Shown: positions 3,314 through 41,493 of the stretch, piece after piece
Layout: every line of letters starts with the position of its first letter
How positions within the stretch are numbered: the stretch's first letter is position 1
Made by a program: the position numbers and the translations under genes
UHGV virus genome: UHGV-0231863
DNA from: a virus
Length of the DNA stretch: 44,709 nucleotides
Direction: 5' to 3' (one strand)
The notes under the pieces: model-generated
What the model saw: the letters and a program-made list of their open reading frames with translations, nothing else
Databases searched by the model: none
Told to the model about the DNA's origin: nothing

Positions 3314-4482
3314 ATATGGCTACAACTCCTTTTAAGGGCGCGAATACTGCGCAATTCTATGTGGCAGAAACTACCCCTGGCGTAACACCGACTAACCCGG
3401 TCTGGTCGCCATTGCGTAACACAGGTGGCGTTCCTGCCATTACCCGCGACACGCTGACCTCCAACGAACTGGACGGCAGCCGTGAAACTACGTCAATCCG
3501 CACCGGTAACAAGCAGGTTAGCGGAGAATACGCTATTGAGCTTAGCTCGAAAAGCCAGGACGACTGGCTGGCGGGTGCTTTAGGCTCTACATGGCAATCC
3601 GGTAGTTCTCTGACCGGGCTATCAATTACCGTCACGCCTGCAGGCAAGACCTTTACCCGTGCCGAAGGTAGCTTTATTTCTGACGGCGTTGAAGTGGGCG
3701 ACCTGATTGCGTTTACCGACTTAACCGGTGACAACGCAAAACCGTTTATCGTAACTGCAGTAGAGGCGCTGGTAGTGACCGGGGCGGGTATCCAGCATAC
3801 CCTGACCACAGAGACAGTAACTACCGCCGCTAAGACAGGGGATAAACTGGAAACGGGAAGCCGGTGCAAGACGTTCTCTATTCTCACCTGGTACAAAGGC
3901 CAGTGCGGCGGGACTGACGCGTACACACTAACCAAAGGCGTGGAAGTTTCTGGTTTTACCATCGAACAGGCTGTTAACGCTATGGTAACTGGCAGCTTCC
4001 CGTTCATCGGTCGCAGTCAGGAGATTCTCACCACGCGGCCGTCTGGTTCTGATTTCTCCTCTGTTACGTTTGGTGACGAGCCATTCTCCTCGGTCGATGT
4101 TTCTGTGTTCGACGGTTCTACGCCGTTGCGTTGCGACAGCCTGACCATCACCAACGACAACAGCGCGTCCGCACAGTTCGAACTCGGCAACACTAACGTA
4201 GCGTTTGTGGAGCGTAGCCGAGCAGCTAACACCTTCTCCATCTCCGGTAAGCTGTACGACATGGCGATGATTCAGAAGTTTATCAACGAGCAGCAGGTGG
4301 AGATTAACTCTATTCTGGCTGGGGTAAACGGGGCTATGTCTTTCAGTTTGAAACGTGCAGAACTTACGGCGGTTACACCTGAGATTGGAGGACCTGAGTC
4401 AATCACTCAGTCTATTGAAGGTCAGGCTACTGGCAACCAGTACCAGTCGTCTATTGTTATTCAGCGTATCACATACGCATAA
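3310..4482 (+). CDS. major tail protein (putative)
   Basis: 390-aa Thr/Ser/Gly-rich beta-type protein, last gene of neck block, followed by a strong terminator. Confidence 0.5.
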   Translation: MNMATTPFKGANTAQFYVAETTPGVTPTNPVWSPLRNTGGVPAITRDTLTSNELDGSRETTSIRTGNKQVSGEYAIELSSKSQDDWLAGALGSTWQSGSSLTGLSITVTPAGKTFTRAEGSFISDGVEVGDLIAFTDLTGDNAKPFIVTAVEALVVTGAGIQHTLTTETVTTAAKTGDKLETGSRCKTFSILTWYKGQCGGTDAYTLTKGVEVSGFTIEQAVNAMVTGSFPFIGRSQEILTTRPSGSDFSSVTFGDEPFSSVDVSVFDGSTPLRCDSLTITNDNSASAQFELGNTNVAFVERSRAANTFSISGKLYDMAMIQKFINEQQVEINSILAGVNGAMSFSLKRAELTAVTPEIGGPESITQSIEGQATGNQYQSSIVIQRITYA

Positions 4483-4486
4483 AACT

Positions 4487-4510
4487 AAGGCCCCGTTTGG
4501 GGCCTTTTTC
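4487..4510. terminator. bidirectional intrinsic terminator
   Basis: AAGGCCCC-gttt-GGGGCCTT hairpin flanked by A-run and T-run at a strand switch. Confidence 0.7.
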
Positions 4511-6921: not shown

Positions 6922-6936
6922 TGTTGGTGTAAGTGA

Positions 6937-6965
6937 ATAGTACCCTATTATATTGGGGTGTGCAA
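6937..6965 (-). promoter_or_regulatory. promoter TTGCAC-17-TACTAT with AATAG-N4-CTATT operator (6936-6949)
   Basis: Minus strand CTTGCACACcccaatataatagggTACTATTCAC upstream of Imm-like gene; near-identical to cassettes at 28984 and 30284. Confidence 0.55.
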
Positions 6966-14053: not shown

Positions 14054-17008
14054 ATGTCAAGCGGATGCGGTGACGTTTTAAGCCTGGCGGATTTACAAAC
14101 CGCCAAGAAACATCAGATTTTCGAGGCCGAGGTTATCACTGGCAAATCCGGCGGTGTCGCCGGTGGTGCCGATATTGATTACGCGACAAATCAGGTTACT
14201 GGACAGACCCAGAAGACGTTACCTGCCGTGTTGCGTGATGCTGGTTTTAAACTGGCAGATTTTGATTTCACGTCAGGCGGTACACTATCCGCTAACGACC
14301 GAAACACCGCAGTTTTGTGGCCGTCGTCCTCTGGCGGTGACGGGGATTGGTACTATTGGTTGGGTGCTCTACCAAAAATTATCCCGGCGTCATCTTCTCC
14401 GCAGTCCACCGGTGGCGTGGCAGATGGGGCGTGGCAGCCTGTCGGGTCGGTCATACTGCGGCAGCAAATATCTGATGTAAACGGTGCAATTCTGTACCCA
14501 GATTTACATGTGGCGCGATGGAAGGACGAATACGACCCGCGCGCATGGGGCGCCGTGGGCGACGGCGTAACTGATGATACTCAATCTATTTTTAATGTAT
14601 TAGCAGCTTCCCCCAACAATTGGATTATAGACGGCAGGGGTTTGACTTATAAAGTTTCCCAATTACCTGACATTAGTAAATTTAAGAATGCTGCATTCGT
14701 TTACGAGCGCGTAGCCGGGCAACCGCTTACTTATGTAGCTGATGGCTTCTTTAACGGCTCACTAACTAAGGTGACGGATACCCCGTTCTACAACGCATGG
14801 ACGCAGGATAAAACTTTCGTCTACGACCATGTTATTTACGCCCCGTTTATGGCGGGCGAACGACATGGTGTTCAAAACTTACATGTAGCTTGGGTTCGCT
14901 CTGGAGACGACGGGCAGACTTGGTCAATGCCTGAGTGGTTGACTCCAATCCATGCTGACTATAATGCTAGTGTTTCTACGGACAGAGTTAACTACCACTG
15001 CATGAGCATGGGTACGTGCGGCAACCGATTATATGCAGTTATAGAAACCCGCTACTTATCTAATATGCAGATGAAGAAGGCAGAACTTTGGTCACGCCCA
15101 ATGCCGTATTTTAGACACCCAACCGGCGGAATAACTATTAGTTCTGGCTCCACTACTGCTACCATTGTCATAGAAAATCATGGCCTAAAAGCAGGAGATG
15201 CGGTTAACTTCTCTAATACATCGGCAACCGGCGTATCGGGTAATATGACGGTTGCGTCTATAATTAACCGAAATACGTTCACTGTTACGCTCTCAAGCCC
15301 TGCGGGCTCCACCATAAACAATGCGGGGGTTACCTGGAACTTCGCAACGCGATTCTGGGACAGCCCATGGGAAATTACCGAATTGCCGGGGGTGGCATAC
15401 TCCACTAACGCTGATTTGTGTGTCACGGAGACACATAGTTTTGCGGTTATAGATGATGCTAACTACACTATCGCTGTCGGCTATCACAACGGCGATGTGT
15501 CTCCTCGGCGTCTCGGTGTCTTGTATTTTAGTAACGTGTATGACAATCCAGGCGTATTCGTTCGTCGCACTGTCGCTCAGGCATACGCTGATAACGCTTC
15601 TGAGCCGTGTGTGAAAAGTTATGGCGGTGTGCTCTACCTTACCACACGCGGCACATTACCTACTTCCCCCGGCTCTACACTGGCGATGAGCACCGATTCT
15701 GGGCAAAACTGGAGCTACTTGCGATTCCCGAACAATGTACATCACTCCAATCTTCCGTTCGCTAAAGTAGGTGACTATCTCTACATCTTTGGTACAGAAC
15801 GTGCATTTGGTGAGTGGGAAGGTGGCGAGCCGGACAGCCGCTATGAAGGTTCGTATCCGAGGACCTTTATGTGCAAAGTCGATGTGTCGTCCTGGCCTTC
15901 ATCTTTAGATGATGTTCAGTGGTTTAATATTACCGACCAAATATACCAGGGCCATATCGTTAACACTGCCGTCGGCGTCGGCTCTGTCTGTGTTAAAGAT
16001 GGCTGGTTGTACTATATCTTTGGAGGGGAAGACTTCTTCTCTCCCTGGAGCATCGGGGATAACAGTGCGAGGTTATGGTACAAACATGATGGGCACCCGG
16101 CTGACTTATATAGCTACCGGATAAAGATTGAAGACCACCCGTATGTATCACGTGATTTCAAATACGGAGCAACTCCTAACCGTACAATACCTGTCGCCAT
16201 GGGGGTAGATGGTGTACGCCATGTAGAAGCACCTTTAACGTTTGACAATGATGTAAGCGTGTACTCCCTGCATGTAACTGGTCTGGAATACGATGGCACA
16301 CAACAGTCTGCCGTGCGTGCACGGTTTGATGGTGATTACGGGCTGATTTCAAAAACAGTCCCCACTAAAACCCCATCGGGTCAAAGACTGATAGTTAGCG
16401 GTGGTGATGGTGCATCCCGTTCCGATGGTGCGTTGCTGCAACTGTACGGGGCAAACAATGCAACACCTAACAGGGCTATTATGTATGCGTCAGGAGGCTT
16501 CTACTCATACAACAATTTCCTTCCTTACTTAGACTCGCAAGTGTCTTTAGGTTCGGCGGGTAATAGGTGGACTACGGTGTACGCTACCACCGGTACGATA
16601 AACACGTCTGATGGTACACTTAAGACGAACAAAGAGGAAATTGAGGGACAACTCCTTACCGCATGGGAGGATATACATGTAATATCTTTTAAGTGGCTTG
16701 AAAGCCTAGCAATCAAGGGTGACACTGCAAGGATACACTTCGGTGTGATAGCCCAAGATGTGCGAGACATCTTGGTCAACCATGGGCTTATGGAGGAGGG
16801 TTCTACAGACTGTAAATATGCTTTCTTGTGCTACGACTCAATTGAAGCTACGTATGATATTGATGAAGATGGTCAGACTGTACAAGTACCCCCTCCCGGC
16901 GGCAGATGGGGGGTTAGGGCGGACCAGATGTTCTTCATAGAGATTGCGTATCAGCGTAAGAAGATGCGCGAGTTCGAGAAGAGGCTGGCAGCGCTAGAAG
17001 CCAAATAA
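14054..17008 (+). CDS. tailspike with sialidase-type (Asp-box) domain and C-terminal intramolecular chaperone
   Basis: GAVGDGVTDDT entry motif; two Asp-boxes SGDDGQTW and STDSGQNW; C-terminal SDGTLKTNKEEIEG auto-cleaving chaperone motif; central part AT-rich. Confidence 0.75.
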   Translation: MSSGCGDVLSLADLQTAKKHQIFEAEVITGKSGGVAGGADIDYATNQVTGQTQKTLPAVLRDAGFKLADFDFTSGGTLSANDRNTAVLWPSSSGGDGDWYYWLGALPKIIPASSSPQSTGGVADGAWQPVGSVILRQQISDVNGAILYPDLHVARWKDEYDPRAWGAVGDGVTDDTQSIFNVLAASPNNWIIDGRGLTYKVSQLPDISKFKNAAFVYERVAGQPLTYVADGFFNGSLTKVTDTPFYNAWTQDKTFVYDHVIYAPFMAGERHGVQNLHVAWVRSGDDGQTWSMPEWLTPIHADYNASVSTDRVNYHCMSMGTCGNRLYAVIETRYLSNMQMKKAELWSRPMPYFRHPTGGITISSGSTTATIVIENHGLKAGDAVNFSNTSATGVSGNMTVASIINRNTFTVTLSSPAGSTINNAGVTWNFATRFWDSPWEITELPGVAYSTNADLCVTETHSFAVIDDANYTIAVGYHNGDVSPRRLGVLYFSNVYDNPGVFVRRTVAQAYADNASEPCVKSYGGVLYLTTRGTLPTSPGSTLAMSTDSGQNWSYLRFPNNVHHSNLPFAKVGDYLYIFGTERAFGEWEGGEPDSRYEGSYPRTFMCKVDVSSWPSSLDDVQWFNITDQIYQGHIVNTAVGVGSVCVKDGWLYYIFGGEDFFSPWSIGDNSARLWYKHDGHPADLYSYRIKIEDHPYVSRDFKYGATPNRTIPVAMGVDGVRHVEAPLTFDNDVSVYSLHVTGLEYDGTQQSAVRARFDGDYGLISKTVPTKTPSGQRLIVSGGDGASRSDGALLQLYGANNATPNRAIMYASGGFYSYNNFLPYLDSQVSLGSAGNRWTTVYATTGTINTSDGTLKTNKEEIEGQLLTAWEDIHVISFKWLESLAIKGDTARIHFGVIAQDVRDILVNHGLMEEGSTDCKYAFLCYDSIEATYDIDEDGQTVQVPPPGGRWGVRADQMFFIEIAYQRKKMREFEKRLAALEAK

Positions 17009-17012
17009 AACT

Positions 17013-17036
17013 AAGGCCCCTTTCGGGGCCTTTTCT
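17013..17036. terminator. bidirectional intrinsic terminator
   Basis: AAGGCCCC-tttc-GGGGCCTT + TTTCT between convergent tailspike and leftward operon. Confidence 0.7.
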
Positions 17037-19696: not shown

Positions 19697-19981
19697 CTAA
19701 CTATAATAGTTCGCTATTAGGTCGTCAACCTGTTTAAACGAACCAACGACAAAAACATTCGCACCACGTTTACGCATACGCTCGTGCTCACGTAACTGGT
19801 GTGGGTCTGGCTTCGTGTTTTCGTCTTTCTTAACCTCGACGAACAAGACGATGCCGACGGGTAGAATTACCAGCAGGTCTGGGGCGCCGGAACGCCCCTC
19901 GTAGGAGAGTTTGCGAACGAGGCCGCCAAGGGCCTCTAATCGGTCTTTTGCGTATTTCTGTACGCGGCCCTCTTTAGTCAT
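19697..19981 (-). CDS. VRR-NUC domain nuclease
   Basis: GAPDLLVI...VEVK...Q motif pattern of the PD-(D/E)XK VRR-NUC family; start taken at internal Met of the track ORF. Confidence 0.7.
   Translation of the reverse strand: MTKEGRVQKYAKDRLEALGGLVRKLSYEGRSGAPDLLVILPVGIVLFVEVKKDENTKPDPHQLREHERMRKRGANVFVVGSFKQVDDLIANYYS
19700..19728 (-). promoter_or_regulatory. promoter TTGACG-17-TATAGT with operator AATAGttcgCTATT (19705-19718)
   Basis: Read on minus strand; overlaps 3' end of VRR-NUC gene, upstream of 19475..19666. Confidence 0.5.
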
Positions 19982-23253: not shown

Positions 23254-23282
23254 ACTATAATAGCTAGCTATTCAGGTGTCAA
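23254..23282 (-). promoter_or_regulatory. promoter TTGACA-17-TATAGT with perfect 14-bp palindrome AATAGCTAGCTATT (23259-23272)
   Basis: Minus strand, intergenic between nuclease and SSB-like genes. Confidence 0.6.
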
Positions 23283-25401: not shown

Positions 25402-25431
25402 AACTATAATAGCGAACTATTCACGTTGTCA
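25402..25431 (-). promoter_or_regulatory. promoter TTGACA-18-TATAGT with operator AATAGcgaaCTATT (25407-25420)
   Basis: Minus strand, divergent from XRE regulator gene; second degenerate operator AATATggtaCTATT at 25452-25465. Confidence 0.6.
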
Positions 25432-25496: not shown

Positions 25497-25712
25497 ATGC
25501 AACCATCTGAACTAGGTATCCGTGTAGAGCAACGCCGTAAAGAACTCGGTATCTCCCAGCGCCATCTGGCTGTCCTGGCCGGTGTTTCCCAAGGCGCGAT
25601 TAACCAGCTGGCACTTGGGGTAACTCAGGACGTCCGCCCAGCGACGCTGTTTAAACTGGCGGAAGTGCTGCAAGTAGACGCCAAGTGGCTGGCGTTGGGT
25701 GAAGGGGCTTAA
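25497..25712 (+). CDS. XRE-family HTH transcriptional regulator (Cro/CI-like)
   Basis: HTH LGISQRHLAVLAGVSQGAINQLALG; divergently placed in the leftward operon next to operator palindromes. Confidence 0.8.
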   Translation: MQPSELGIRVEQRRKELGISQRHLAVLAGVSQGAINQLALGVTQDVRPATLFKLAEVLQVDAKWLALGEGA

Positions 25713-28579: not shown

Positions 28580-28610
28580 TTTTAAATCTCCTGTTTGTTT
28601 GGTGAAGCCA

Positions 28611-28639
28611 AGTATAGGATAGCGGGAATGTAAAAGCAA
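28611..28639 (-). promoter_or_regulatory. promoter TTGCTT-17-TATACT for leftward operon (AlpA-like gene first)
   Basis: Read on minus strand; ~30 nt upstream of the AGGAG SD. Confidence 0.45.
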
Positions 28640-28686
28640 CCAAAACACCACACAAAGTTACTAAGATACAAAAGATGCTACCGGTA

Positions 28687-28715
28687 TTGACTTTTACTTA
28701 AAAATATGGTAAGCT
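28687..28715 (+). promoter_or_regulatory. promoter TTGACT-17-TAAGCT (copy 1 of duplicated cassette) with palindrome AAGCTCAGcCTGAGCTT
   Basis: Plus strand; palindrome 28711-28727 overlaps -10; followed by identical 38-mer shared with 41272-41309. Confidence 0.45.
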
Positions 28716-28718
28716 CAG

Positions 28719-28756
28719 CCTGAGCTTGTGAAGTATGAACAAGCGACCGCGGCGCG
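28719..28756 (+). repeat. 38-nt block identical to 41272-41309 (copy 1)
   Basis: CCTGAGCTTGTGAAGTATGAACAAGCGACCGCGGCGCG; contains hairpin GCTTGT-gaagtatga-ACAAGC and ATG of micro-ORF MNKRPRR. Confidence 0.85.
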
Positions 28757-28901
28757 CGGCGGGCGAAACGAGCACGTGTAGCGTGTGGAGTGAGGCTCGC
28801 TGGCGCGTTTGGGAGGCCCAAAGTCTATTGTAATTCCCGCCTAAATATCTAAGTTACTGATTTGCCGTTGGTTATATCCGCAAGCTCACTCACTCACTCT
28901 T

Positions 28902-28938
28902 GGTGCCTTCGGCACCACGTTCGTTTCGTTTCGCTTGC
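28902..28938 (+). terminator. UUCG-tetraloop hairpin plus U-rich tract
   Basis: GGTGCC-ttcg-GGCACC followed by ACGTTCGTTTCGTTTCGCTT; preceded by (CTCA)x3. Confidence 0.45.
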
Positions 28939-28983
28939 TACCCCATTAAACGAAAGAATCACAACGGCAACGTAACTATTCTC

Positions 28984-29012
28984 TTGCACACACCAACATA
29001 ATAGGATACTAT
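28984..29012 (+). promoter_or_regulatory. promoter TTGCAC-17-TACTAT with operator AATAGgataCTATT (29000-29013)
   Basis: CTTGCACACaccaacataataggaTACTATTCAC then conserved AAACGAGA leader and GGAG SD. Confidence 0.55.
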
Positions 29013-29046
29013 TCACTTATCGAAACGAGACAGAGGAGTGAGGGCT

Positions 29047-29244
29047 ATGTTTAAACGTGGTCAGTTGGTTAAATACTCCGACGATAAACACGGCATAATT
29101 GAATTAAAATCTGCTTTATTTCCAGGAAAGTACGTAGTTACCGTGCAAAATGTGAGAGGAGTAAATTCACAAATATACGTAGCGGAGGAGAACTTAAAAC
29201 TCATCGGCAACAATTTTAAATTTAAAGGGGGGAGGGTGAAGTGA
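29047..29244 (+). CDS. hypothetical early protein
   Basis: ATG with GGAG SD downstream of conserved promoter cassette; stop overlaps next start. Confidence 0.45.
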   Translation: MFKRGQLVKYSDDKHGIIELKSALFPGKYVVTVQNVRGVNSQIYVAEENLKLIGNNFKFKGGRVK

Positions 29245-29444
29245 TGGAAGAATTATTTGAAGAACTGAAACATCATGATTTCGAGGAAATATATTTCGTA
29301 GCTGAACGCTACGAGGTGCATCTGGCGGACGGTATAACGGTTATTACATCTACCAGCGAGCGAATGTTAAATAGCTTACGAGCAATACGAACGGCATCGA
29401 ATCATGATGCTTGTGCCGACGACGCTGAGGGAGGTTGCCGTTAA
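29244..29444 (+). CDS. hypothetical early protein
   Basis: Acidic 66-aa ORF, TGATG / TAATG coupling to neighbours. Confidence 0.45.
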   Translation: MEELFEELKHHDFEEIYFVAERYEVHLADGITVITSTSERMLNSLRAIRTASNHDACADDAEGGCR

Positions 29445-29623
29445 TGCGAATCCGTATAACTGACCGCAGGCTTATCCGTATAACTGACCGCAGGCTTATA
29501 GATTTCGGTATCTCGGTAGGTGATGTTTTTCCGGCGTTCAGAATCAACCATTATGGTTTTATGATTGAGTACAAAGGGTCGTTATTGTTCGTGTATCGGG
29601 ATGAATGTGAGGTTCTGGTATGA
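29444..29623 (+). CDS. hypothetical early protein containing tandem IRITDRRL repeat
   Basis: 59-aa ORF; includes the perfect 24-bp tandem duplication. Confidence 0.4.
   Translation: MRIRITDRRLIRITDRRLIDFGISVGDVFPAFRINHYGFMIEYKGSLLFVYRDECEVLV
29450..29497 (+). repeat. perfect 24-bp tandem duplication (2 copies)
   Basis: ATCCGTATAACTGACCGCAGGCTT repeated head-to-tail; encodes IRITDRRL twice in frame. Confidence 0.9.
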
Positions 29624-29775
29624 GAGAAGCATTTGAACGGTGGGCTGTGGTCGAGGGTCTGCCGGTTAACAAGGGTTCAAAGAAAGAGTACCTGAACGTT
29701 AAGACGCGTCTCGCGTGGCGGGCGTGGAAAGCTGGTGTGCAATCCTTGATTGAAAGAGGTGTGAGGTATGGGTGA
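29620..29775 (+). CDS. hypothetical early protein
   Basis: 51-codon ORF read by eye, ATGA-type overlaps at both ends. Confidence 0.35.
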   Translation: MREAFERWAVVEGLPVNKGSKKEYLNVKTRLAWRAWKAGVQSLIERGVRYG

Positions 29776-29968
29776 GTGGATTAAGTGTAGTGAGATGCTG
29801 CCGGGTAATGGGTATACGGATAAAGAGTTCCTGGTGTATGAAACGTTAAATAACGCAGTTCAGCACGATTATTACATAGTTCCTGATGACGGGAGAAAGC
29901 CTTTCTGGAATCACTACGATAATTACGTGACGCACTGGATGCCGTTACCCGAGCCGCCAGAAGTGTGA
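29768..29968 (+). CDS. DUF551-like small phage protein
   Basis: C-terminal THWMPLPEPP motif. Confidence 0.5.
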   Translation: MGEWIKCSEMLPGNGYTDKEFLVYETLNNAVQHDYYIVPDDGRKPFWNHYDNYVTHWMPLPEPPEV

Positions 29969-30035
29969 TGTTCAATAGTTTGGGATTTTACTGAGTGACT
30001 TACGCTGCTACACAGCAGCGTACAACTTTAACTTA

Positions 30036-30059
30036 GTGTCGTCAAAAGGCGACACTTTC
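30036..30059 (+). terminator. terminator-like hairpin
   Basis: GTGTCG-tcaaaagg-CGACAC + TTT; preceded by 9-bp-arm inverted repeat TACGCTGCT-acac-AGCAGCGTA (~30001-30022). Confidence 0.4.
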
Positions 30060-30102
30060 ATCAAACGCAACAATCGAAGCGACTATTGCAGGAGATGCAA
30101 CA

Positions 30103-30276
30103 ATGATTACTAAAGAACAGGCTGAACGACTAATCACGTTAATCGACACGATGGTTGATGCGAAAACCGATTTAGCAACGGCGACAGAGGAATCCGCTAC
30201 CTGGTCGCTTGAAGAAAGAGAGGCAGAAGCGGAAAGGGAGTTACTGGCGTTCATCGACTCTATAACACACCAATAA
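30103..30276 (+). CDS. hypothetical early protein (approximate coordinates)
   Basis: 57-codon ORF with AGGAG SD; opposite-strand track ORF 30042..30254 is low-complexity and judged spurious. Confidence 0.4.
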   Translation: MITKEQAERLITLIDTMVDAKTDLATATEESATWSLEEREAEAERELLAFIDSITHQ

Positions 30277-30283
30277 AATTTAC

Positions 30284-30312
30284 TTGCACACTAAGATAGA
30301 ATAGGCTACTAT
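30284..30312 (+). promoter_or_regulatory. promoter TTGCAC-17-TACTAT with operator AATAGgctaCTATT (30300-30313)
   Basis: CTTGCACACtaagatagaataggcTACTATTCAT then AAACGAGAGGAGAG leader. Confidence 0.55.
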
Positions 30313-30342
30313 TCATTTACACAAACGAGAGGAGAGACAGAG

Positions 30343-30480
30343 ATGGGCTGGTACGGTAGCTGGACTTTAGGCGAACCGGTAGACGCTTACGAAATAATTA
30401 GTAGCACTTCGGTGTGTGACGGCGACACTAAATCGCTGCTAGTCGGGGTGGATGAGAAAAGGGGTGAAGCTGATGAGTAA
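30343..30480 (+). CDS. hypothetical early protein
   Basis: 45-codon ORF directly downstream of promoter cassette at 30284-30312; stop overlaps next start. Confidence 0.35.
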   Translation: MGWYGSWTLGEPVDAYEIISSTSVCDGDTKSLLVGVDEKRGEADE

Positions 30481-31018
30481 CAAAAACGAAATATTCGAGT
30501 ACCTGATCGACCAGCTACGGCAGCAGGTAAATAACAGCCGGAGCGAAGACCTGGCTCATGAGGTGCAGTCACTTAAGAATCAGTTACGTGATGCTTCGGC
30601 GCAGATTAAGGAGTTGCGGGAAGACAACATTAAGAAATCTGAGCACATATCGCACCTGACATGGCAAGTTAAGGAGTTGCATCTGGCATTGGCCGAGGCT
30701 ACTGGTGACGTGGAGGCATACAAACTTATCCGCAAAGGTGCGTACGGTTCGGAGCAATCTGGTTGCCGAAAAGAAGATACGCAGGAATGTGACCACAATT
30801 GGATTATCGCTCCAGGATTGTTTATCGCCGAAGGCCACAAGGACAACGTGCCCGGTAGCCGGTTTTGCTGCGAATGCGGCAAGCGTGAGTGGGACGGACT
30901 TGAGTATGGGGCAACAGCCTGTACACAGGAGTGCAAACACAGTTTCTATTATGTAATAACAGATGGCTCAGCGCCGTTCGGTACGAAAGTATGTAAAACG
31001 TGCGGGGAATACTTCTGA
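30473..31018 (+). CDS. coiled-coil protein with C-terminal Cys-rich (zinc-binding-like) domain
   Basis: N-terminal heptad region; C-terminal CDHNW, CCECGK, CTQEC, CKTCGEYF. Confidence 0.5.
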   Translation: MSNKNEIFEYLIDQLRQQVNNSRSEDLAHEVQSLKNQLRDASAQIKELREDNIKKSEHISHLTWQVKELHLALAEATGDVEAYKLIRKGAYGSEQSGCRKEDTQECDHNWIIAPGLFIAEGHKDNVPGSRFCCECGKREWDGLEYGATACTQECKHSFYYVITDGSAPFGTKVCKTCGEYF

Positions 31019-31221
31019 TGACCAGCATCTTATTTATCTGGGTACTGTCGGCGGGCAAGATGCAACTAGCGGCATCGGAAACGTTTTATTCGACGGAGGC
31101 GTGCCAGTCCGCGGCACGCGCCGCAGAGAACGCACACTTCCTGTTTCAGGGCGACAAGCCCAACGATTCAGAGGTACGCGCTATCTGCTCACCTAAGCGA
31201 CTTGGCAATCAGGAGAAATAA
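31018..31221 (+). CDS. small protein with signal-peptide-like N-terminus
   Basis: Hydrophobic N-terminus MTSILFIWVLSAGKMQLAAS; TGATG coupling. Confidence 0.35.
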   Translation: MTSILFIWVLSAGKMQLAASETFYSTEACQSAARAAENAHFLFQGDKPNDSEVRAICSPKRLGNQEK

Positions 31222-31514
31222 TGTCGTTAGCAACTGACATCCTGAAACGAAGCGGCCTTGCGCCGCTGTCGCCGAGAGCTAAAACACGGGTATACAAGCG
31301 CCACCGTAACGCTCTGTACCCTGAGATTCAGGCCAGACGTAAAGCTATCCGCGCCTGTGGATTCCAGAACGGGAAGGCCGTGAATCTCGGTGAGTTCAAA
31401 ACACAGGAACGTGCAGCTATAGCTAATCGGTTATTTAATTACTGGAAATCGCTTGGATACGATGATATTCCAACGAAACCCCAGAGACGACAATACATCT
31501 GGAGACATAAATAA
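31221..31514 (+). CDS. hypothetical basic protein
   Basis: 97-aa Arg/Lys-rich ORF. Confidence 0.45.
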   Translation: MSLATDILKRSGLAPLSPRAKTRVYKRHRNALYPEIQARRKAIRACGFQNGKAVNLGEFKTQERAAIANRLFNYWKSLGYDDIPTKPQRRQYIWRHK

Positions 31515-31589
31515 ACCGTTATTAGGATAATTCCTAACCGTGCTATCCTCCAGTTACTGCATACTTAATACGCACCTGGAGGATTCATC

Positions 31590-31898
31590 TTGGATAAATT
31601 TACTGAAACAGTTACAGGCTGGCTTCTCGCTGCCGCACTGGTCGGTGGATTGGTCGGGCTAAGACAACATAAAAAGTCTATATCCGGGCCGATTGACGGA
31701 CTGGTATTTCTTCTCACCGGCTTCGCGTGTGCTATTTTCGGTGCACCTCTTGCCGCTCAATGGTTCGGTATTACCGGTGAGCGTGAGATAGCTGGCCTCG
31801 GATTCATCATTGCCATTCTCTGGATGCCTATCTATTCCCGCCTTTCTGGCATCGTATCGGGTGGCGATATTGCCCGCCCAGGAGGACCGCATGACTGA
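31590..31898 (+). CDS. holin (putative)
   Basis: 102 aa with three hydrophobic helices, directly upstream of endolysin. Confidence 0.55.
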   Translation: MDKFTETVTGWLLAAALVGGLVGLRQHKKSISGPIDGLVFLLTGFACAIFGAPLAAQWFGITGEREIAGLGFIIAILWMPIYSRLSGIVSGGDIARPGGPHD

Positions 31899-32163
31899 GC
31901 TATTCTGGTTTGTCACAATGCTTTCAATGGGCGCTTCGTCCCTGTTCAACGTGTATAATGAACGCGTGGACGACGGGCTGTTCGGGCGTGTTCTCTATAT
32001 CCTGACTGCTATCGTCTGTGCCGCCGGATGTATTCACCTGTTACAGGGCAGCATGTCGCCTACGCTGCCTGAGACATTAATCACATTAGTCGCGCTGCGC
32101 CAGATTCGCCAGGCGTGGCTGTCATACGGAGGGCATAAGCGTGTCTCGAAATATTTCAGATAA
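31891..32163 (+). CDS. membrane protein (second holin / antiholin-like)
   Basis: ~90 aa from internal ATG, two TM helices, overlaps holin end and endolysin start. Confidence 0.4.
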   Translation: MTELFWFVTMLSMGASSLFNVYNERVDDGLFGRVLYILTAIVCAAGCIHLLQGSMSPTLPETLITLVALRQIRQAWLSYGGHKRVSKYFR

Positions 32164-32626
32164 TGGATTGCATTTTACCGCCGCGTTCGAGGGATTCCGC
32201 GGAACTGCGTATCGCGCTACGCCGAACGAGAAGTACCTGACTATTGGTTATGGTCACTACGGGCCAGACGTAACACCAGGTAAGACCATCACGCCAGGGC
32301 AAGGCCTCCTGTTACTGAATCGCGATATGGCTAAGGCCGTAGCTGCGGTCGATGCAGCAGCACACCATTCGCTGACACAGGCACAGTTCGACGCTGTGTG
32401 CGACCTGGTCTATAACGCGGGTGCTGGTGTGATAGCAGCTACTACCGGAACCGGTAAGGCGCTGCGTTCGGGTGATACTGCAACACTGCGGGCTAAGCTG
32501 GCGCTGTTCATCAACCAGAACGGCAAACCGTTACTTGGCCTGCGTCGCCGTACCGCAGGACGTCTGGCATTGTTCGACGGTAAACCGTGGCAGGAGGCTG
32601 AGGCAATCGGTAGGGCGGTTAAATGA
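32141..32626 (+). CDS. endolysin, GH24 lysozyme-like
   Basis: AAFEGFRGTAYRATPNEKYLTIGYGH motif characteristic of T4-type lysozymes; apparent GTG start. Confidence 0.8.
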   Translation: MSRNISDNGLHFTAAFEGFRGTAYRATPNEKYLTIGYGHYGPDVTPGKTITPGQGLLLLNRDMAKAVAAVDAAAHHSLTQAQFDAVCDLVYNAGAGVIAATTGTGKALRSGDTATLRAKLALFINQNGKPLLGLRRRTAGRLALFDGKPWQEAEAIGRAVK

Positions 32627-33279: not shown

Positions 33280-33461
33280 CTGACCGTGAATACGAAAAGA
33301 TGATGGTAGAGGCTGTTAACGGCGGCGTAGACATCGGTCACGTGATGCACGTCCTGAATACTAAAATCGCAGTAGCTGAGCAGATGGTTGAGTCGCTTTA
33401 CGAGACACGCCGTGAACTGATTAACCGCTTCAACCTGAACAAGGGTGATACCAATGCCTAA
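33276..33461 (+). CDS. hypothetical early protein
   Basis: 61-aa track ORF, coupled. Confidence 0.4.
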   Translation: MTDREYEKMMVEAVNGGVDIGHVMHVLNTKIAVAEQMVESLYETRRELINRFNLNKGDTNA

Positions 33462-33702
33462 AATCACAATCGCATCACTCGAACGCCGTATTATGGTGCT
33501 CGAGTCAGAGAAACAGACGTTAGGCGGGCAACTGTCGATTAACGGTGAGTACCAGTTAGCCGCATTTAAGGTTCTTCTCATGTTGTTGAGAGGAGAAGAG
33601 GAAAAGATGAACGCCTGCGAGCATGATTACCGCCTGCATTTAGTTGATGGGGAGCATCGAGTCACATGCTTAAAATGCGGTAAAGCGTATGAAAGCGCCT
33701 GA
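33454..33702 (+). CDS. hypothetical protein with C-terminal zinc-ribbon-like Cys/His pairs
   Basis: CEHDYRLH...CLKCGKAY. Confidence 0.4.
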   Translation: MPKITIASLERRIMVLESEKQTLGGQLSINGEYQLAAFKVLLMLLRGEEEKMNACEHDYRLHLVDGEHRVTCLKCGKAYESA

Positions 33703-36456: not shown

Positions 36457-37926
36457 ATGTTAACTATGAACGGTCAGAATCAGGGTGTTAAGACAAAACA
36501 CCGGGAATGGCTGCATCACTTCGATAAATGGCAGAAGGTGCGCCACGCACTGGAGGGTGACCTTATCCGCTATCTGCGAAACGTCGGGAAGAACGAGCCG
36601 GACCCAACTTATGCAGCCCAGCGCCAGGAAGAATACGAGAACGGCGCTATCTGCTACAATTTCACCAAGCGTACCCTGTCGGGTATGGTTGGCTCGGTAA
36701 TGCGAAAAGACCCGGAGCAGATTATTCCACGTGAACTGGAATACCTGTTACGCAATGCCGATGGCTCGGGTGTCGGCCTGTGGCAGCACGCGCAGGATAC
36801 GCTGATGGAGATTGACTCGGTGGGTCGTGGCGGTTTACTGGTGGATGCGCCGGAGACAGCGGCAGCGACGGCAGCCGAACAGAACGCCGGATTATTAAAC
36901 CCGGTCATCGCATTCTATACCGCAGAGAACATCATCAACTGGCGACTCACTCGCGTAGGCTCTGTTAACCGCGTTACGATGGTAGTGCTGCGTGAGGTAT
37001 GGGAATATTCAGAACCTCGAGCCGAGTTTGAAACCAAGTTTGGGGAACAATACCGCGTTCTCGACTTGATTGACGGGCGCTACCGTCAGCGCATATACCG
37101 ATTCGATGCGGAAGGCGGCGCGCAAGACGAAGTAATAGAAATCTTCCCGGAACTGGGCGAACAGTTGCGCGGCAAAATCCCGTTCACGTTCATCGGGGCC
37201 AGCAACAACGACGCGACGGTTGATGACGCGCCTTTGCTGCCGTTAGCTGAGCTTAATATCGGGCATTTTCGCAACAGCGCAGACAATGAGGAATCTAGCT
37301 TCGTTGTAGGCCAGCCCACTCTGTTCATCGCCCCCGGTGAGAACATGAGCATGGTACAATGGAAAGAAGCCAACCCTCGCGGAGTGCGTATGGGGTCACG
37401 TTCTGGCCATAACATCGGTTACGGCGGCAATGCGTTTCTGGTCCAGGCCGGTGAGAACAACCTAGCCAAGCAGAACATGTTGGATAAAGAGAACCAGGCC
37501 ATCCAGATTGGGGCGCAGCTTATCACCCCGACGCAGCAAATCACCGCGGAATCGGCCCGCCTGCAACGCGGAGCGGATACGTCTGTTATGGCGACAATCG
37601 CACGTAACGTAAGCATGGCGTATACCGATGCGTTGCGCTGGGTCGCGGGTATGCTTGGGATTAGCGACAGCACTGAAATTGAGTTCAAACTGAACATGGA
37701 GTTCTTCCTGCAACCGATGACAGCTCAGGACCGTTCTCAGTGGATGGCGGATATTAACGCTGGCTTGTTACCAGCTACTGCTTACTACGCCGCGCTGCGT
37801 AAGGCTGGCGTAACCGACTGGACCGATGAGGACATTCAGAACGCTATTGAGGACGCACCGCTGCCGTTGGGTGTAAATACTCAGGTAGCGGGGGATATTC
37901 CGCAGTCGGCGCAACAACAGGAGTAG
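36457..37926 (+). CDS. portal protein
   Basis: 489-aa protein directly after terminase, acidic C-terminus. Confidence 0.8.
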   Translation: MLTMNGQNQGVKTKHREWLHHFDKWQKVRHALEGDLIRYLRNVGKNEPDPTYAAQRQEEYENGAICYNFTKRTLSGMVGSVMRKDPEQIIPRELEYLLRNADGSGVGLWQHAQDTLMEIDSVGRGGLLVDAPETAAATAAEQNAGLLNPVIAFYTAENIINWRLTRVGSVNRVTMVVLREVWEYSEPRAEFETKFGEQYRVLDLIDGRYRQRIYRFDAEGGAQDEVIEIFPELGEQLRGKIPFTFIGASNNDATVDDAPLLPLAELNIGHFRNSADNEESSFVVGQPTLFIAPGENMSMVQWKEANPRGVRMGSRSGHNIGYGGNAFLVQAGENNLAKQNMLDKENQAIQIGAQLITPTQQITAESARLQRGADTSVMATIARNVSMAYTDALRWVAGMLGISDSTEIEFKLNMEFFLQPMTAQDRSQWMADINAGLLPATAYYAALRKAGVTDWTDEDIQNAIEDAPLPLGVNTQVAGDIPQSAQQQE

Positions 37927-37931
37927 ATAGA

Positions 37932-37955
37932 AAGGCCCCGCTAGGGGCCTTAGCT
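37932..37955. terminator. bidirectional terminator-like hairpin
   Basis: AAGGCCCC-gcta-GGGGCCTT between convergent portal and KilA-N genes; same stem as 4487 and 17013. Confidence 0.55.
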
Positions 37956-40689: not shown

Positions 40690-41150
40690 TGATGGGCTTT
40701 TTCAAAGTAACTGACGTACCGTCACGCCGCGTAGTCCAGTACGCCCGCGTGTCTGGCTCTGGCGAGAACGTGGTGTTTATTGAAGACGAAAGTGTACTCG
40801 GAACACCAGTTGACGATATGCCGTTTGCGGACAAGACCGGTATTGCGCTGCCAGCGGCAGGTATGCTTTATGAGATTCAGTACCTGGCGGATGCCGGTGA
40901 TGTGTATTTCTCCGTACAACCGCAGGACGCTGAACTGGCAGACGGCAGCGCAAATATCGCTGTCGAAGTTAAGGCGGGCAAAGCACCATATGCGCTGACC
41001 TGGTACAAAGACGGGAAGGAAGTGGTAAACGCCCCGGAAGAGGCTCTGTCTCTGACGGTTAACGCAGTTGGTGAATACTTCGTTAAAGTCACTGATGCCG
41101 ATGGTATAGAGGCCGTAAGTAAAGCAGCGAAGGTTACTAAGCCAGAATAA
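40689..41150 (+). CDS. Ig-like domain virion protein
   Basis: C-terminal YALTWYKDGKEV...GEYFVKVTD pattern typical of Ig-like phage surface domains. Confidence 0.45.
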   Translation: MMGFFKVTDVPSRRVVQYARVSGSGENVVFIEDESVLGTPVDDMPFADKTGIALPAAGMLYEIQYLADAGDVYFSVQPQDAELADGSANIAVEVKAGKAPYALTWYKDGKEVVNAPEEALSLTVNAVGEYFVKVTDADGIEAVSKAAKVTKPE

Positions 41151-41154
41151 ACTG

Positions 41155-41176
41155 AAGCCCCGAAAGGGGCTTTTTA
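41155..41176 (+). terminator. intrinsic terminator
   Basis: AAGCCCC-gaaa-GGGGCTT + TTTAG. Confidence 0.6.
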
Positions 41177-41225: not shown

Positions 41226-41268
41226 AACTATTCGAATAGTTGACTTTTCACCAAAAATGTGCTAAGCT
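41226..41268 (+). promoter_or_regulatory. promoter TTGACT-17-TAAGCT (copy 2 of duplicated cassette) preceded by 16-bp palindrome AACTATTCGAATAGTT
   Basis: Palindrome 41226-41241 abuts -35 at 41240-41245; -10 at 41263-41268. Confidence 0.45.
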
Positions 41269-41271
41269 CCA

Positions 41272-41309
41272 CCTGAGCTTGTGAAGTATGAACAAGCGAC
41301 CGCGGCGCG
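41272..41309 (+). repeat. 38-nt block identical to 28719-28756 (copy 2)
   Basis: Same 38-mer downstream of homologous promoter; flanks diverge immediately afterwards. Confidence 0.85.
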
Positions 41310-41493
41310 GGCAGGTAACGGAGCGGGACGTAAGTCCTGAGTGTAGTTACGCTGACGCGTTCGGAAGGGCCATACCCTATTGCTTGTGTAAAAAGTAACT
41401 GGTTTACTGAGATTACGCCGTTTCTATGTTTAAATGATAAGGACTAGCGCCCCGCTTTAAGGCGGGGCTTTACTTATCGAGAAAGGGGGAAAC

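What the first reader, a model, noticed from the sequence alone, without database searches (positions are those of the whole stretch)
30473..31018. Early coiled-coil protein with a Cys-rich C-terminal domain
The 181-aa product combines an N-terminal heptad coiled coil with a C-terminal domain carrying at least four Cys pairs (CDHNW, CCECGK, CTQEC, CKTCG). It lies in the tightly coupled early block where host-takeover and anti-defence genes usually reside, and resembles no replication or structural protein known to me.
Basis: inference. Interest (0 to 1): 0.4.

Follow-up and report, generated by a model that had tools for sequence, protein, structure and literature searches.

The report
Coiled-coil stalk with swappable zinc-ribbon heads
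This is a real but uncharacterised accessory gene of a Kagunavirus phage whose product is a coiled-coil rod carrying two tiny zinc-ribbon-like knobs, and related phages have reshuffled those knobs like cassettes, which suggests, without proving, that it binds variable host or rival-phage proteins.

Summary
Window 30473..31018 (+) encodes a 181-aa protein with about 70 residues of unbroken heptad coiled coil and a Cys-rich C-terminus (9 Cys in 88 aa, P about 1.5e-5). The "four Cys pairs" are better read as two tandem mini zinc-ribbon-like modules, C-x-H-x-[WF]...C-x2-C-G. C133 and C150 are not conserved.

The window is a Kagunavirus (Guernseyvirinae) genome. The gene belongs to phrog_6094 (function unknown). 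It has no significant relative in Pfam, NCBIfam, PADLOC, PDB or BFVD.

The new finding is the family's evolution. Among 121 representatives there are 17 module types in 42 architectures (0-4 modules), joined at conserved linkers. Stalk indels of 21, 35 and 49 residues keep the heptad phase. A profile of the C-terminal array finds only 18 clusters among 1.84 billion representative proteins.

The gene sits in a translationally coupled four-gene unit. That unit lies behind a sigma-70-like promoter whose operator palindrome also occurs at replication-gene promoters, and upstream of the lysis cassette. "Early" is therefore plausible but unproven.

The function is unknown. My best inference, with low to moderate confidence, is an oligomeric, multivalent protein-binding adaptor or inhibitor aimed at variable host or competitor factors. 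It is moderately interesting.

The parts
30284..30313 (+). Sigma-70-like promoter TTGCAC-17 nt-TACTAT, overlapped by the palindrome AATAG-N4-CTATT (30300-30313). It is the presumed promoter/operator of the four-gene unit that contains the target.
   Evidence: Read directly from the sequence. The 20-mer AATAGGMTACTATTCAYTTA occurs 4 times (expected 0.01). The palindrome occurs 6 times (expected 0.05). An identical -35/-10 arrangement lies at 28984-29012. The equivalent site is annotated as a PHIRE 'phage promoter' in phage fBC-Eco01. Its function is inferred, not shown.
30343..30480 (+). Upstream 45-aa ORF (phrog_35344, unknown function). Its stop overlaps the target's start by 8 nt.
   Evidence: In some relatives its N-terminus is fused to the target's C-terminal part (P0006, P0252), which shows the two genes are habitual neighbours.
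30473..31018 (+). Target CDS, 181 aa. It is a member of phrog_6094, with module architecture A-F.
30473..30532 (+). Strongly conserved N-terminal segment (aa 1-20, MSNKNEIFEYLIDQLRQQVN).
   Evidence: E9, L11, Q14, R16 and Q17 are invariant and most other positions are at least 90% conserved in 38 sequences. This segment shows 100% nucleotide identity even to a relative whose later segments fall to about 30% (L006).
30533..30748 (+). Heptad coiled-coil stalk (aa 21-92).
   Evidence: A single register runs throughout. The a/d residues are S24 L27 V31 L34 L38 A41 I45 L48 N52 K55 I59 L62 V66 L69 L73 A76 V80 Y83. AF2 predicts helix for residues 3-89. Family indels are 21, 35 and 49 aa.
30606..30680 (+). 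Two copies of the 12-nt direct repeat TTAAGGAGTTGC (30606-30617 and 30669-30680), spaced 63 nt apart. They flank the three-heptad segment that is absent from many relatives.
   Evidence: exact repeat; 38 of 100 anchored sequences have the short form, in which QIKEL is followed directly by HLAL or RLAL, and 58 have the long form.
30752..30787 (+). Conserved linker EQSGCRKEDTQE (aa 94-105). It acts as the recombination joint in front of the first module.
   Evidence: 75-100% identical to the window in all 35 representatives compared segment by segment, even where the flanking segments fall to 0-30%. The linker is duplicated inside multi-module relatives such as P0022 and P0090.
30788..30880 (+). 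Module A (aa 106-136): C106-D-H108-N-W110 ... PGLFIAEG ... C132-C-E-C135-G136. It is the long CHCC zinc-ribbon-like cassette.
   Evidence: C106, H108, W110, C132, C135 and G136 are invariant. This is the commonest type, with 81 occurrences. AF2 predicts short beta-strands at low confidence.
30881..30931 (+). Inter-module linker (aa 137-153, KREWDGLEYGATACTQE). C150 is not conserved; relatives have ...KPKNDTQE.
30932..31006 (+). Module F (aa 154-178): C154-K-H156-SFYYVITDGSAPFGTKV-C174-K-T-C177-G178.
   Evidence: Some relatives replace C-x-H with W-P-Y. Among isolated phages this module is found only in 13 Escherichia phages.
31018..31221 (+). Downstream 67-aa ORF (phrog_3766, unknown function; hydrophobic N-terminus). 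Its ATG overlaps the target's TGA.
31221..31514 (+). Next coupled ORF, 97 aa, basic (phrog_9632, unknown function). It is the last gene of the unit, ahead of a 75-nt gap and the holins at 31590 onwards.
33454..33702 (+). Second, separate gene built on the same plan: a conserved coiled-coil N-terminus plus one CHCC head (CEHDYRLHLVDGEHRVTCLKCG).
   Evidence: (phrog_9023). Relatives swap the head for an acidic tail or other sequence.

Best explanation
What is shown. The gene encodes a cytoplasmic accessory protein specific to Guernseyvirinae phages. It has three parts:
- a highly conserved 20-residue N-terminal segment;
- a heptad coiled-coil stalk of about 70 residues, which almost certainly makes the protein a parallel oligomer;
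- two small cassettes, each with the ligand pattern C-x-H...C-x2-C.

What is inferred for the cassettes. Each is inferred to fold as a mini zinc ribbon around one Zn2+.

How the family evolves (shown). The stalk changes length only in whole heptads. The C-terminal cassettes are exchanged, duplicated and deleted by recombination at conserved linkers (EQSGCRKEDTQEC... and ...REWDDKEYKPKNDTQEC...). This gives many head combinations on one scaffold.

What I infer for function. The protein is made from a host-RNA-polymerase promoter before or alongside replication functions. It works as a multivalent binder: the stalk holds two or more copies of each zinc-stabilised, aromatic-rich, acidic head. These heads would bind, and so sequester or inhibit, host or rival-phage proteins that themselves vary between strains. 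Defence or exclusion factors are the obvious candidates. Cassette swapping would retarget the protein.
For: Reality and architecture:
- 1330 clusters at 90% identity are homologous, and the ligand residues are invariant.
- The heptad register is unbroken, and AF2 predicts a helix.
- Cys enrichment has P = 1.5e-5.
- The only, and sub-threshold, Pfam matches of the heads are to zinc-ribbon families: Zn_Ribbon_TF, Zn_ribbon_Nudix, DZR, Zn_Ribbon_1 and Zn_ribbon_3.

Structural constraint on the stalk:
- Stalk indels are 21, 35 and 49 aa in 99 of 100 anchored sequences.
- A 12-nt direct repeat explains the 63-nt indel.

Cassette shuffling:
- 17 module types occur in 42 architectures among 121 representatives, and the same type appears at different array positions.
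- Breakpoints are sharp at the linkers. P0003 is 93-100% identical up to aa 153 and then 28%. P0068 lacks module A but is 92% identical in module F.
- Nucleotide identity swings from 100% to about 30% within a single gene.

Hypervariable and accessory:
- tblastn finds the N-terminal half in 230 phage records and the C-terminal half in 110. Only 13 of those 110 are at least 80% identical.
- The adjacent orf97 is found in 500 records, of which 111 are at least 80% identical.
- The family has 1330 clusters against 275 for a co-resident gene built on the same plan.

Lineage restriction and synteny:
- The profile of the heads finds 18 clusters in 1.84e9 proteins.
- A divergent relative with a different N-terminus occupies the same slot upstream of the holins and lysozyme.

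Localisation and charge:
- There is no signal peptide or transmembrane segment; the longest hydrophobic run is 5 residues.
- The heads are acidic (pI 5.0, net charge -5), which favours protein binding over DNA binding.

Expression: the sigma-70-like promoter and operator are shared with replication-module promoters.

Host association: module F occurs only in E. coli phages, while module B crosses genera.
Against: - No functional evidence exists, and there is no homology to any characterised inhibitor.
- Zinc binding is inferred from the motif only. AF2 confidence for the heads is low (pLDDT about 59), and fold searches gave no significant match outside the family.
- Some module F variants replace C-x-H with W-P-Y, so not every cassette can bind metal in the same way.
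- Truncated and frameshifted family members are common (P0067, P0091, L008/L009).
- The gene is absent from roughly half of Guernseyvirinae records. Both facts are compatible with a dispensable or weakly selected gene.
- Expression timing has not been measured, and the gene is co-oriented with the lysis cassette.
Confidence: 0.4

Rival explanations
1. It is a nucleic-acid-binding regulator. A dimeric coiled coil positions tandem zinc modules on DNA or RNA to control phage lysis or late genes, or host genes. This would be analogous to the Ogr/Delta zinc-finger activators or to tandem zinc-finger arrays.
For: Zinc ribbons often bind nucleic acids, and the weak Pfam leads are to TFIIB-type and primase-type ribbons. 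The gene lies upstream of the lysis and packaging genes on the same strand. Modular arrays of small Zn domains are how eukaryotic zinc-finger proteins read DNA (general knowledge).
Against: The heads are acidic (pI 5.0, net -5) and the whole protein has pI 5.5. The gene is accessory and hypervariable rather than core, which does not fit a regulator of conserved late promoters. There is no match to the Ogr_Delta, DksA/TraR or any HTH or zinc-finger DNA-binding family.
Confidence: 0.13
2. It is a largely dispensable, recombination-prone filler ORF. Its diversity would reflect relaxed selection and a recombination hot spot in the accessory region, not retargeting of a binding function.
For: The gene is absent from about half of related phages. 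Truncated or frameshifted variants and ligand-loss variants (WPY) exist. The whole surrounding region is mosaic.
Against: The ligand residues and W110/G136 are invariant across diverged modules. Stalk indels are restricted to multiples of seven residues. The N-terminal 20 residues are very highly conserved. All three are signatures of purifying selection on a folded, oligomeric protein.
Confidence: 0.17
3. It is a RecBCD or other nuclease inhibitor of the T7 gp5.9 type, that is, a coiled-coil DNA mimic.
For: Residues 25-50 align with gp5.9 residues 21-46 at 12/26 identity (SLKNQL...A....EL.E). gp5.9 chains 8b1r_P and 9gmb_I appear in the PDB profile search. A linear-dsDNA siphophage needs protection of its DNA ends (general knowledge).
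Against: The database-level E-value is 0.13-0.15, ranked among unrelated coiled coils such as keratin, BST2 and Hook3. By my own count from the sequences, the aligned segment here has a net charge of about -2, against about -8 in gp5.9, so the DNA-mimic character is missing. gp5.9 also has no zinc heads.
Confidence: 0.05
4. It is an envelope or lysis-associated factor, for example a spanin-like or Tol-binding coiled-coil protein. This is suggested by its position before the holins and by the annotation 'putative tolA-binding protein' in one relative.
For: It lies about 570 nt upstream of the holins and endolysin, on the same strand, with no predicted terminator between. Phage 5sent1 carries the annotation. 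The downstream 67-aa ORF has a hydrophobic N-terminus.
Against: There is no transmembrane segment, signal peptide or lipobox. Clustered Cys/His ligands point to a reduced, cytoplasmic zinc protein. The TolA-binding label is not reproduced by Pfam or NCBIfam, where only generic coiled-coil noise appears.
Confidence: 0.05

Closest known systems
phrog_6094 and the 'hypothetical protein' genes at the same position in Kagunavirus and Jerseyvirus phages (for example K1ind1-3, UTI89UKE1, ZCSE9, RP180)
   Same: True family membership (E 8e-69 over the full length). The gene sits in the same slot between the small accessory ORFs and the holin/endolysin genes.
   Different: Nothing is known about the family. 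The PHROG profile is 142 positions long against 181 aa here, because the family's length and head composition vary.
DksA/TraR family (including lambda Orf73-type phage members): a coiled coil plus a zinc finger that binds the RNA polymerase secondary channel
   Same: A small cytoplasmic protein that combines a coiled coil with a Cys-rich zinc domain, and that is encoded in phage accessory regions.
   Different: There is no PF01258 match. The ligands are C-x-H...C-x2-C rather than CxxC-x17-CxxC. There is no DxxDxA tip motif. The coiled coil here is a long single-register stalk, not a hairpin. The heads are tandem and interchangeable.
P2 Ogr / P4 Delta zinc-finger late activators (Delta is a tandem fusion of two Ogr-like domains)
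   Same: Small phage proteins built from one or two tandem zinc-binding domains, located ahead of late functions.
   Different: There is no sequence match. The ligand spacing differs. The protein is acidic rather than basic. It is accessory and hypervariable rather than an essential core regulator.
Lambda Ea22-type modular coiled-coil early proteins, and more generally polymorphic proteins with a conserved scaffold and swappable C-terminal modules (general knowledge, not tested here)
   Same: The design principle is shared: a conserved N-terminal or coiled-coil scaffold, with recombining C-terminal domains that differ between otherwise similar phages.
   Different: There is no homology. Here the exchanged units are very small CHCC cassettes (17-30 residues between the outer ligands), arrayed 0-4 per protein.
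T7 gp5.9 (RecBCD inhibitor)
   Same: A short stretch of similar coiled-coil sequence.
   Different: The similarity is not significant at database level, the DNA-mimic charge is lacking, and gp5.9 has no zinc heads.

Membership tests
phrog_6094 (unknown function) | Significant full-length match to the family profile | tested here: met
   E 8.2e-69, 230.9 bits. Residues 1-181 align to profile positions 1-141 of 142.
Zinc ribbon (fold class) | Two metal-binding knuckles (CxxC/CxH type) separated by a beta-hairpin, with four conserved Cys/His ligands | tested here: met
   C106/H108 with C132/C135, and C154/H156 with C174/C177. The first set is invariant and the second is at least 90% conserved. 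Every one of the 17 module types keeps the pattern, except the WPY variants of type F.
Zinc ribbon (fold class) | Match to a curated zinc-ribbon family, or a confident structural match | tested here: not met
   The best Pfam hits (Zn_Ribbon_TF, E 1.3e-4, 21.9 bits against a cut-off of 29; Zn_ribbon_Nudix, DZR, Zn_Ribbon_1 and Zn_ribbon_3) are all below their gathering scores. The AF2 model has pLDDT about 59, and no Foldseek hit reaches E<=1e-3 outside the family.
Zinc ribbon (fold class) | Stoichiometric Zn2+ binding | not testable with these tools
   This needs metal analysis of purified protein.
Parallel coiled coil | A continuous heptad repeat with hydrophobic a/d positions over at least 4 heptads | tested here: met
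   One register runs over aa 21-92, with 75-100% hydrophobic a/d positions per 28-residue window. Indels are multiples of 7. The oligomeric state was not tested.
DksA/TraR | PF01258 zinc finger (CxxC-x17-CxxC) and a DxxDxA coiled-coil tip | tested here: not met
   There is no PF01258 hit at E<=10, no DxxDxA motif, and the ligand pattern differs.
Ogr/Delta late activators | Ogr_Delta zinc-finger domain; a basic DNA-binding or RNAP-contacting protein | tested here: not met
   There is no Pfam hit, and the pI is 5.5.
T7 gp5.9-like RecBCD inhibitor | Significant sequence similarity and a strongly acidic DNA-mimic helix | tested here: not met
   The PDB profile E-value is 0.13, among coiled-coil noise. 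By my count from the sequence, the aligned segment has a net charge of about -2, against about -8 for gp5.9.
i-spanin (Rz-like) | An N-terminal transmembrane anchor with a periplasmic coiled coil | tested here: not met
   There is no hydrophobic segment longer than 5 residues.
Known anti-phage defence proteins (PADLOC) | Match to a defence-system protein model | tested here: not met
   Only coiled-coil noise to LmuB and JetC arms, with E>=0.006 and about 10-13 bits.

The most novel reading that the evidence does not exclude
Guernseyvirinae phages carry a previously undescribed combinatorial 'warhead rack'. An oligomeric coiled-coil scaffold displays arrays of interchangeable mini zinc-ribbon cassettes, each specific for a different host immunity or exclusion protein. 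Linker-guided recombination between co-infecting phages would re-arm the scaffold, making it a cassette-based counter-defence system. A second, single-head family in the same genomes (window 33454..33702) would use the same principle.
Probability: 0.2. Interest if true: 0.7.

Novelty: new variant of a known kind. Interest (0 to 1): 0.42.

Why it matters
If the heads are specific protein binders, this family would be a compact natural library: at least 17 cassette types of about 20-35 residues each, displayed on a common oligomeric stalk. It could help explain differences in host range or defence sensitivity among otherwise near-identical therapeutic phage candidates. Kagunavirus and Jerseyvirus phages are widely isolated against UPEC, K1 E. 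coli and Salmonella. It could also point to new host targets or immunity proteins. The heptad-phased stalk indels and linker-guided cassette exchange are also a clean example of how phage accessory proteins diversify. If the gene proves dispensable, it is simply one more mosaic ORFan in a phage accessory region.

Tried and rejected
1. Homology searches with the whole protein, the isolated C-terminus and six other head arrays found nothing useful. Pfam, NCBIfam, PADLOC and PDB sequences gave only coiled-coil noise or sub-threshold zinc-ribbon hits.

2. Structure prediction did not resolve the heads. AF2 on the full-length alignment (38 sequences) and on a heads-only alignment (24 sequences) left the heads at pLDDT of about 59 or below. 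Foldseek against PDB and BFVD then returned only family members at significant E-values.

3. An exhaustive HMM search of 1.84e9 representative proteins with the head profile found no relatives outside the family. One member (P0250) has a different N-terminus. Its N-terminal domain and four other insert segments have no Pfam match.

4. The gp5.9/RecBCD-inhibitor lead was rejected as coiled-coil noise lacking the acidic character.

5. DksA/TraR, Ogr/Delta and spanin readings were rejected on their defining features.

6. Published Kagunavirus RNA-seq (PMC12645636) could not time the gene, because its Glimmer annotation left the homologous interval uncalled. The BASEL paper gives defence phenotypes for Kagunavirus phages, but the passages I retrieved do not discuss this gene.

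7. A literature search for zinc-ribbon, coiled-coil anti-defence proteins returned nothing.

8. There is no Rfam family in 28600-31100, and no compositional anomaly across the gene.

9. The IMG/VR scan gave only 7 loci, so large-scale DNA breakpoint and dN/dS analyses were not attempted.
Full report
**Context**

The 44.7-kb window is essentially a complete genome of a Kagunavirus (Guernseyvirinae) siphophage. Region 30000-31600 is 97.9% identical to Escherichia phage vB_EcoS-UTI89UKE1 and about 96% identical to K1ind2/K1ind3.

The minus strand between about 17.2 and 28.65 kb carries the replication module: an SNF2 helicase, a C5 methylase, DNA polymerase A, a DUF2800 nuclease, an AAA_25 helicase and HTH proteins. 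From 29038 a plus-strand arm runs through a dozen small ORFs, including DUF551 and DUF7438. It continues through the two holins and the endolysin (31590..32626), more small ORFs, and then terminase and portal. The finding lies in the small-ORF block of this arm.

**The observation**

The ORF at 30473..31018 exists and encodes 181 aa. GenBank relatives annotate the in-frame ATG at 30452. However, homologues start MSNKNE/MNTKNE, and an AGGGG Shine-Dalgarno sequence precedes 30473.

Residues 21-92 keep one heptad register. The a/d positions are S24 L27 V31 L34 L38 A41 I45 L48 N52 K55 I59 L62 V66 L69 L73 A76 V80 Y83. AlphaFold2 models residues 3-89 as helix at moderate confidence.

The last 88 residues hold 9 Cys against none in the first 93, with P = 1.5e-5 at the window's Cys frequency.

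**What the Cys residues are**

Alignment of 38 full-length relatives and 24 C-terminal fragments gave the following:
- C106, H108, W110, C132, C135, G136, C174 and C177 are invariant.
- C154, H156 and G178 are at least 90% conserved.
- C133 and C150 vary freely.
- C98, in the linker, is about 90% conserved.

The domain is therefore two tandem units of the form C-x-H-x-[WF]-(loop)-C-x2-C-G, which is the ligand pattern of a CHCC zinc ribbon.

Other evidence agrees with small zinc ribbons but does not prove them. Predicted secondary structure is short beta-strands. The only Pfam leads, all below threshold, are zinc-ribbon families. Non-significant local Foldseek matches are to TFIIB-, TFIIS- and ribosomal-type ribbons. 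Metal binding remains an inference.

**Homology**

The protein belongs to phrog_6094, whose function is unknown (E 8e-69). Pfam, NCBIfam, PADLOC and PDB sequence searches return only coiled-coil noise. Fold searches return only family members.

A profile of the C-terminal array, searched exhaustively against 1.84 billion representative proteins, found 18 clusters at E<=1e-3. Of the 14 I read, all but P0250 carry the family's N-terminal sequence or are fragments or fusions that carry its linkers and modules.

P0250 has an unrelated N-terminal domain followed by a coiled coil, the same linker and an A-type module. Its gene occupies the same slot, a few small genes upstream of the holins and lysozyme, in a divergent phage. 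The family is therefore a lineage-specific invention with conserved synteny.

**The main new finding: modular evolution**

The 120 best representatives, out of 1330 clusters at 90% identity, plus the query contain 17 distinguishable module types arranged in 42 architectures with 0-4 modules. The window's protein is A-F. The same type can occupy different positions in an array.

Segment-wise identities show sharp breakpoints at the linkers:
- P0003 is 93-100% identical to the window protein up to residue 153 and 28% after it.
- P0005 switches directly after module A.
- P0068 lacks module A but keeps module F at 92%.
- P0076 shares only the unusual inter-module linker.

Nucleotide identity within a single gene swings between 100% and about 30%. 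The linker EQSGCRKEDTQEC stays 75-100% identical throughout and is itself duplicated inside multi-module relatives.

The stalk is also polymorphic, but only in heptad multiples. The distance between conserved anchors differs by 21 or 35 residues in 99 of 100 sequences, and a 49-residue insertion occurs nearer the N-terminus. In the window, a perfect 12-nt direct repeat (TTAAGGAGTTGC at 30606 and 30669) flanks exactly the 63 nt that are missing in the short forms.

Invariant ligands, heptad-phased indels and a near-invariant N-terminal 20-mer argue for purifying selection on a folded, oligomeric protein. That selection is combined with rapid exchange of its heads.

**How variable the gene is compared with its surroundings**

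tblastn against 50,697 phage records gave these counts:

| Query | Records with a hit | Hits at >=80% identity |
|---|---|---|
| Neighbouring orf97 | 500 | 111 |
| Target N-terminal half | 230 | 47 |
| Target C-terminal half | 110 | 13 |

The gene is thus accessory, present in roughly half of Guernseyvirinae. Its heads are far more variable than the adjacent gene.

Module F occurs only in 13 Escherichia phages, mostly K1/UPEC phages plus Bas73 and Bas74. Module B occurs in Salmonella, Escherichia and Raoultella phages.

A second gene in the window (33454..33702, phrog_9023) follows the same plan: a conserved coiled-coil N-terminus with either one CHCC head, an acidic tail or other sequence. 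It is much less diverse, with 275 clusters.

**Expression context**

The target's ATG overlaps the upstream 45-aa ORF by 8 nt. Its TGA overlaps the ATG of a 67-aa ORF, which in turn overlaps a 97-aa ORF.

Thirty-one nucleotides upstream of the first of these genes lies TTGCAC-17 nt-TACTAT, overlapped by the palindrome AATAG-N4-CTATT. The palindrome occurs six times in the window against 0.05 expected. The sites are:
- 29000, with an identical promoter at the head of the arm;
- 6936;
- 19705, 23259 and 25408, where it overlaps TTGAC[AG]-17/18-TATAGT promoters that face the minus-strand replication genes.

The Cro/CI-type HTH gene at 25497..25712 is a candidate operator-binding protein; this is an inference.

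This supports host-polymerase, early or middle expression under a shared regulator. But no terminator is predicted before the holins, and the available RNA-seq study did not annotate this gene. Timing therefore remains unproven.

**Mechanism**

The following are shown:
- a real gene;
- a coiled coil;
- two CHCC cassettes;
- cassette shuffling at conserved linkers;
- heptad-phased stalk indels;
- lineage restriction;
- an accessory distribution;
- cytoplasmic features: no transmembrane segment or signal peptide, and acidic heads with pI 5.0.

The following are inferred:
- zinc binding;
- oligomerisation;
- function as a multivalent binder whose interchangeable, aromatic-rich heads sequester or inhibit strain-variable host or rival-phage proteins, with defence or exclusion factors the likeliest class.

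I give this functional reading a confidence of about 0.4.

The rivals are:
- a nucleic-acid-binding regulator, disfavoured by the acidity and the accessory status;
- a dispensable recombination-prone ORF, disfavoured by the constraint signatures but supported by frequent truncations and absence from many phages;
- a gp5.9-like RecBCD inhibitor, where the similarity is within coiled-coil noise and the charge is wrong;
- an envelope or lysis factor, for which there are no membrane-targeting features.

**Comparison and novelty**

The nearest characterised analogues by design are DksA/TraR (coiled coil plus zinc finger), Ogr/Delta (tandem zinc domains) and modular coiled-coil early proteins such as lambda Ea22. 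Membership of the first two is excluded by tested defining features, and Ea22 is an analogy only.

Members of the family are already in databases as hypothetical proteins. The cassette-array organisation appears not to have been described in the literature I could search. I rate it a new variant of a known kind (a mosaic, zinc-ribbon-containing phage accessory protein) and of moderate interest.

Noticed in passing
window 6936-6949, 19705-19718, 23259-23272, 25408-25421, 29000-29013, 30300-30313: The palindrome AATAG-N4-CTATT occurs six times (expected 0.05). Each copy overlaps the -10 or spacer of a sigma-70-like promoter. Two promoter classes are visible: TTGCAC-17-TACTAT, and TTGAC[AG]-17/18-TATAGT. 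They look like a phage operator regulon linking the replication genes, the accessory arm and a minus-strand island at 4.5-6.9 kb. The HTH_3 gene at 25497..25712 is a candidate regulator.
   Followed up: partly
window 28687-28835 and 41240-41385: A promoter-like element (TTGACT-17-TAAGCT) plus a leader of about 110-170 nt is duplicated. The first 70 nt are 89% identical. One copy lies upstream of the plus-strand accessory/lysis arm and the other upstream of ORF 41494. RNAalifold predicts shared stem-loops, with 4 pairs kept through changes on both sides, but from only 2 sequences. There is no Rfam hit for the first copy; the second was not scanned. It could be a cis-acting leader or antitermination-type RNA.
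   Followed up: partly
window 33454-33702: A second family (phrog_9023) has a conserved coiled-coil N-terminus (MPKITIASLERRI...) and an exchangeable C-terminal head. In the window the head is one CHCC module; in relatives it is an acidic tail or other sequence. The likely true start is the ATG at 33454, not the GTG at 33445.
   Followed up: yes
window 29450-29497: A perfect 24-nt tandem duplication (ATCCGTATAACTGACCGCAGGCTT, two copies) lies inside ORF 29435..29623 and produces a repeated RITDRRLI peptide.
   Followed up: no
window 31018-31221 and 31221-31514: Two genes are translationally coupled downstream of the target. The first encodes a 67-aa protein with a hydrophobic, signal-like N-terminus and two Cys (phrog_3766). 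The second encodes a basic 97-aa protein (phrog_9632) whose GKxxxLGxF..ERAA motif resembles AP2-type DNA-binding domains; that resemblance is recalled from memory and not tested. In phage records the 97-aa protein splits into two identity classes: 111 records at 80% or more, 388 below 60%, and only one in between.
   Followed up: partly
window 4479-4508, 17005-17034, 37924-37953, 41146-41175: A family of GC-rich hairpins (AAGGCCCCnnnnGGGGCCTTTT) lies at gene-block ends. They are probably intrinsic terminators, bidirectional in places.
   Followed up: no
literature (bioRxiv 10.1101/2024.09.12.612763): Some Kagunavirus isolates (Bas74-76) plate only on E. coli K-12 cured of its cryptic prophages, whereas Bas70-73 plate on regular K-12. 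Bas73 and Bas74 both carry F-like heads. The accessory-gene basis of the plating difference is unknown and could be tested against this gene family.
   Followed up: no
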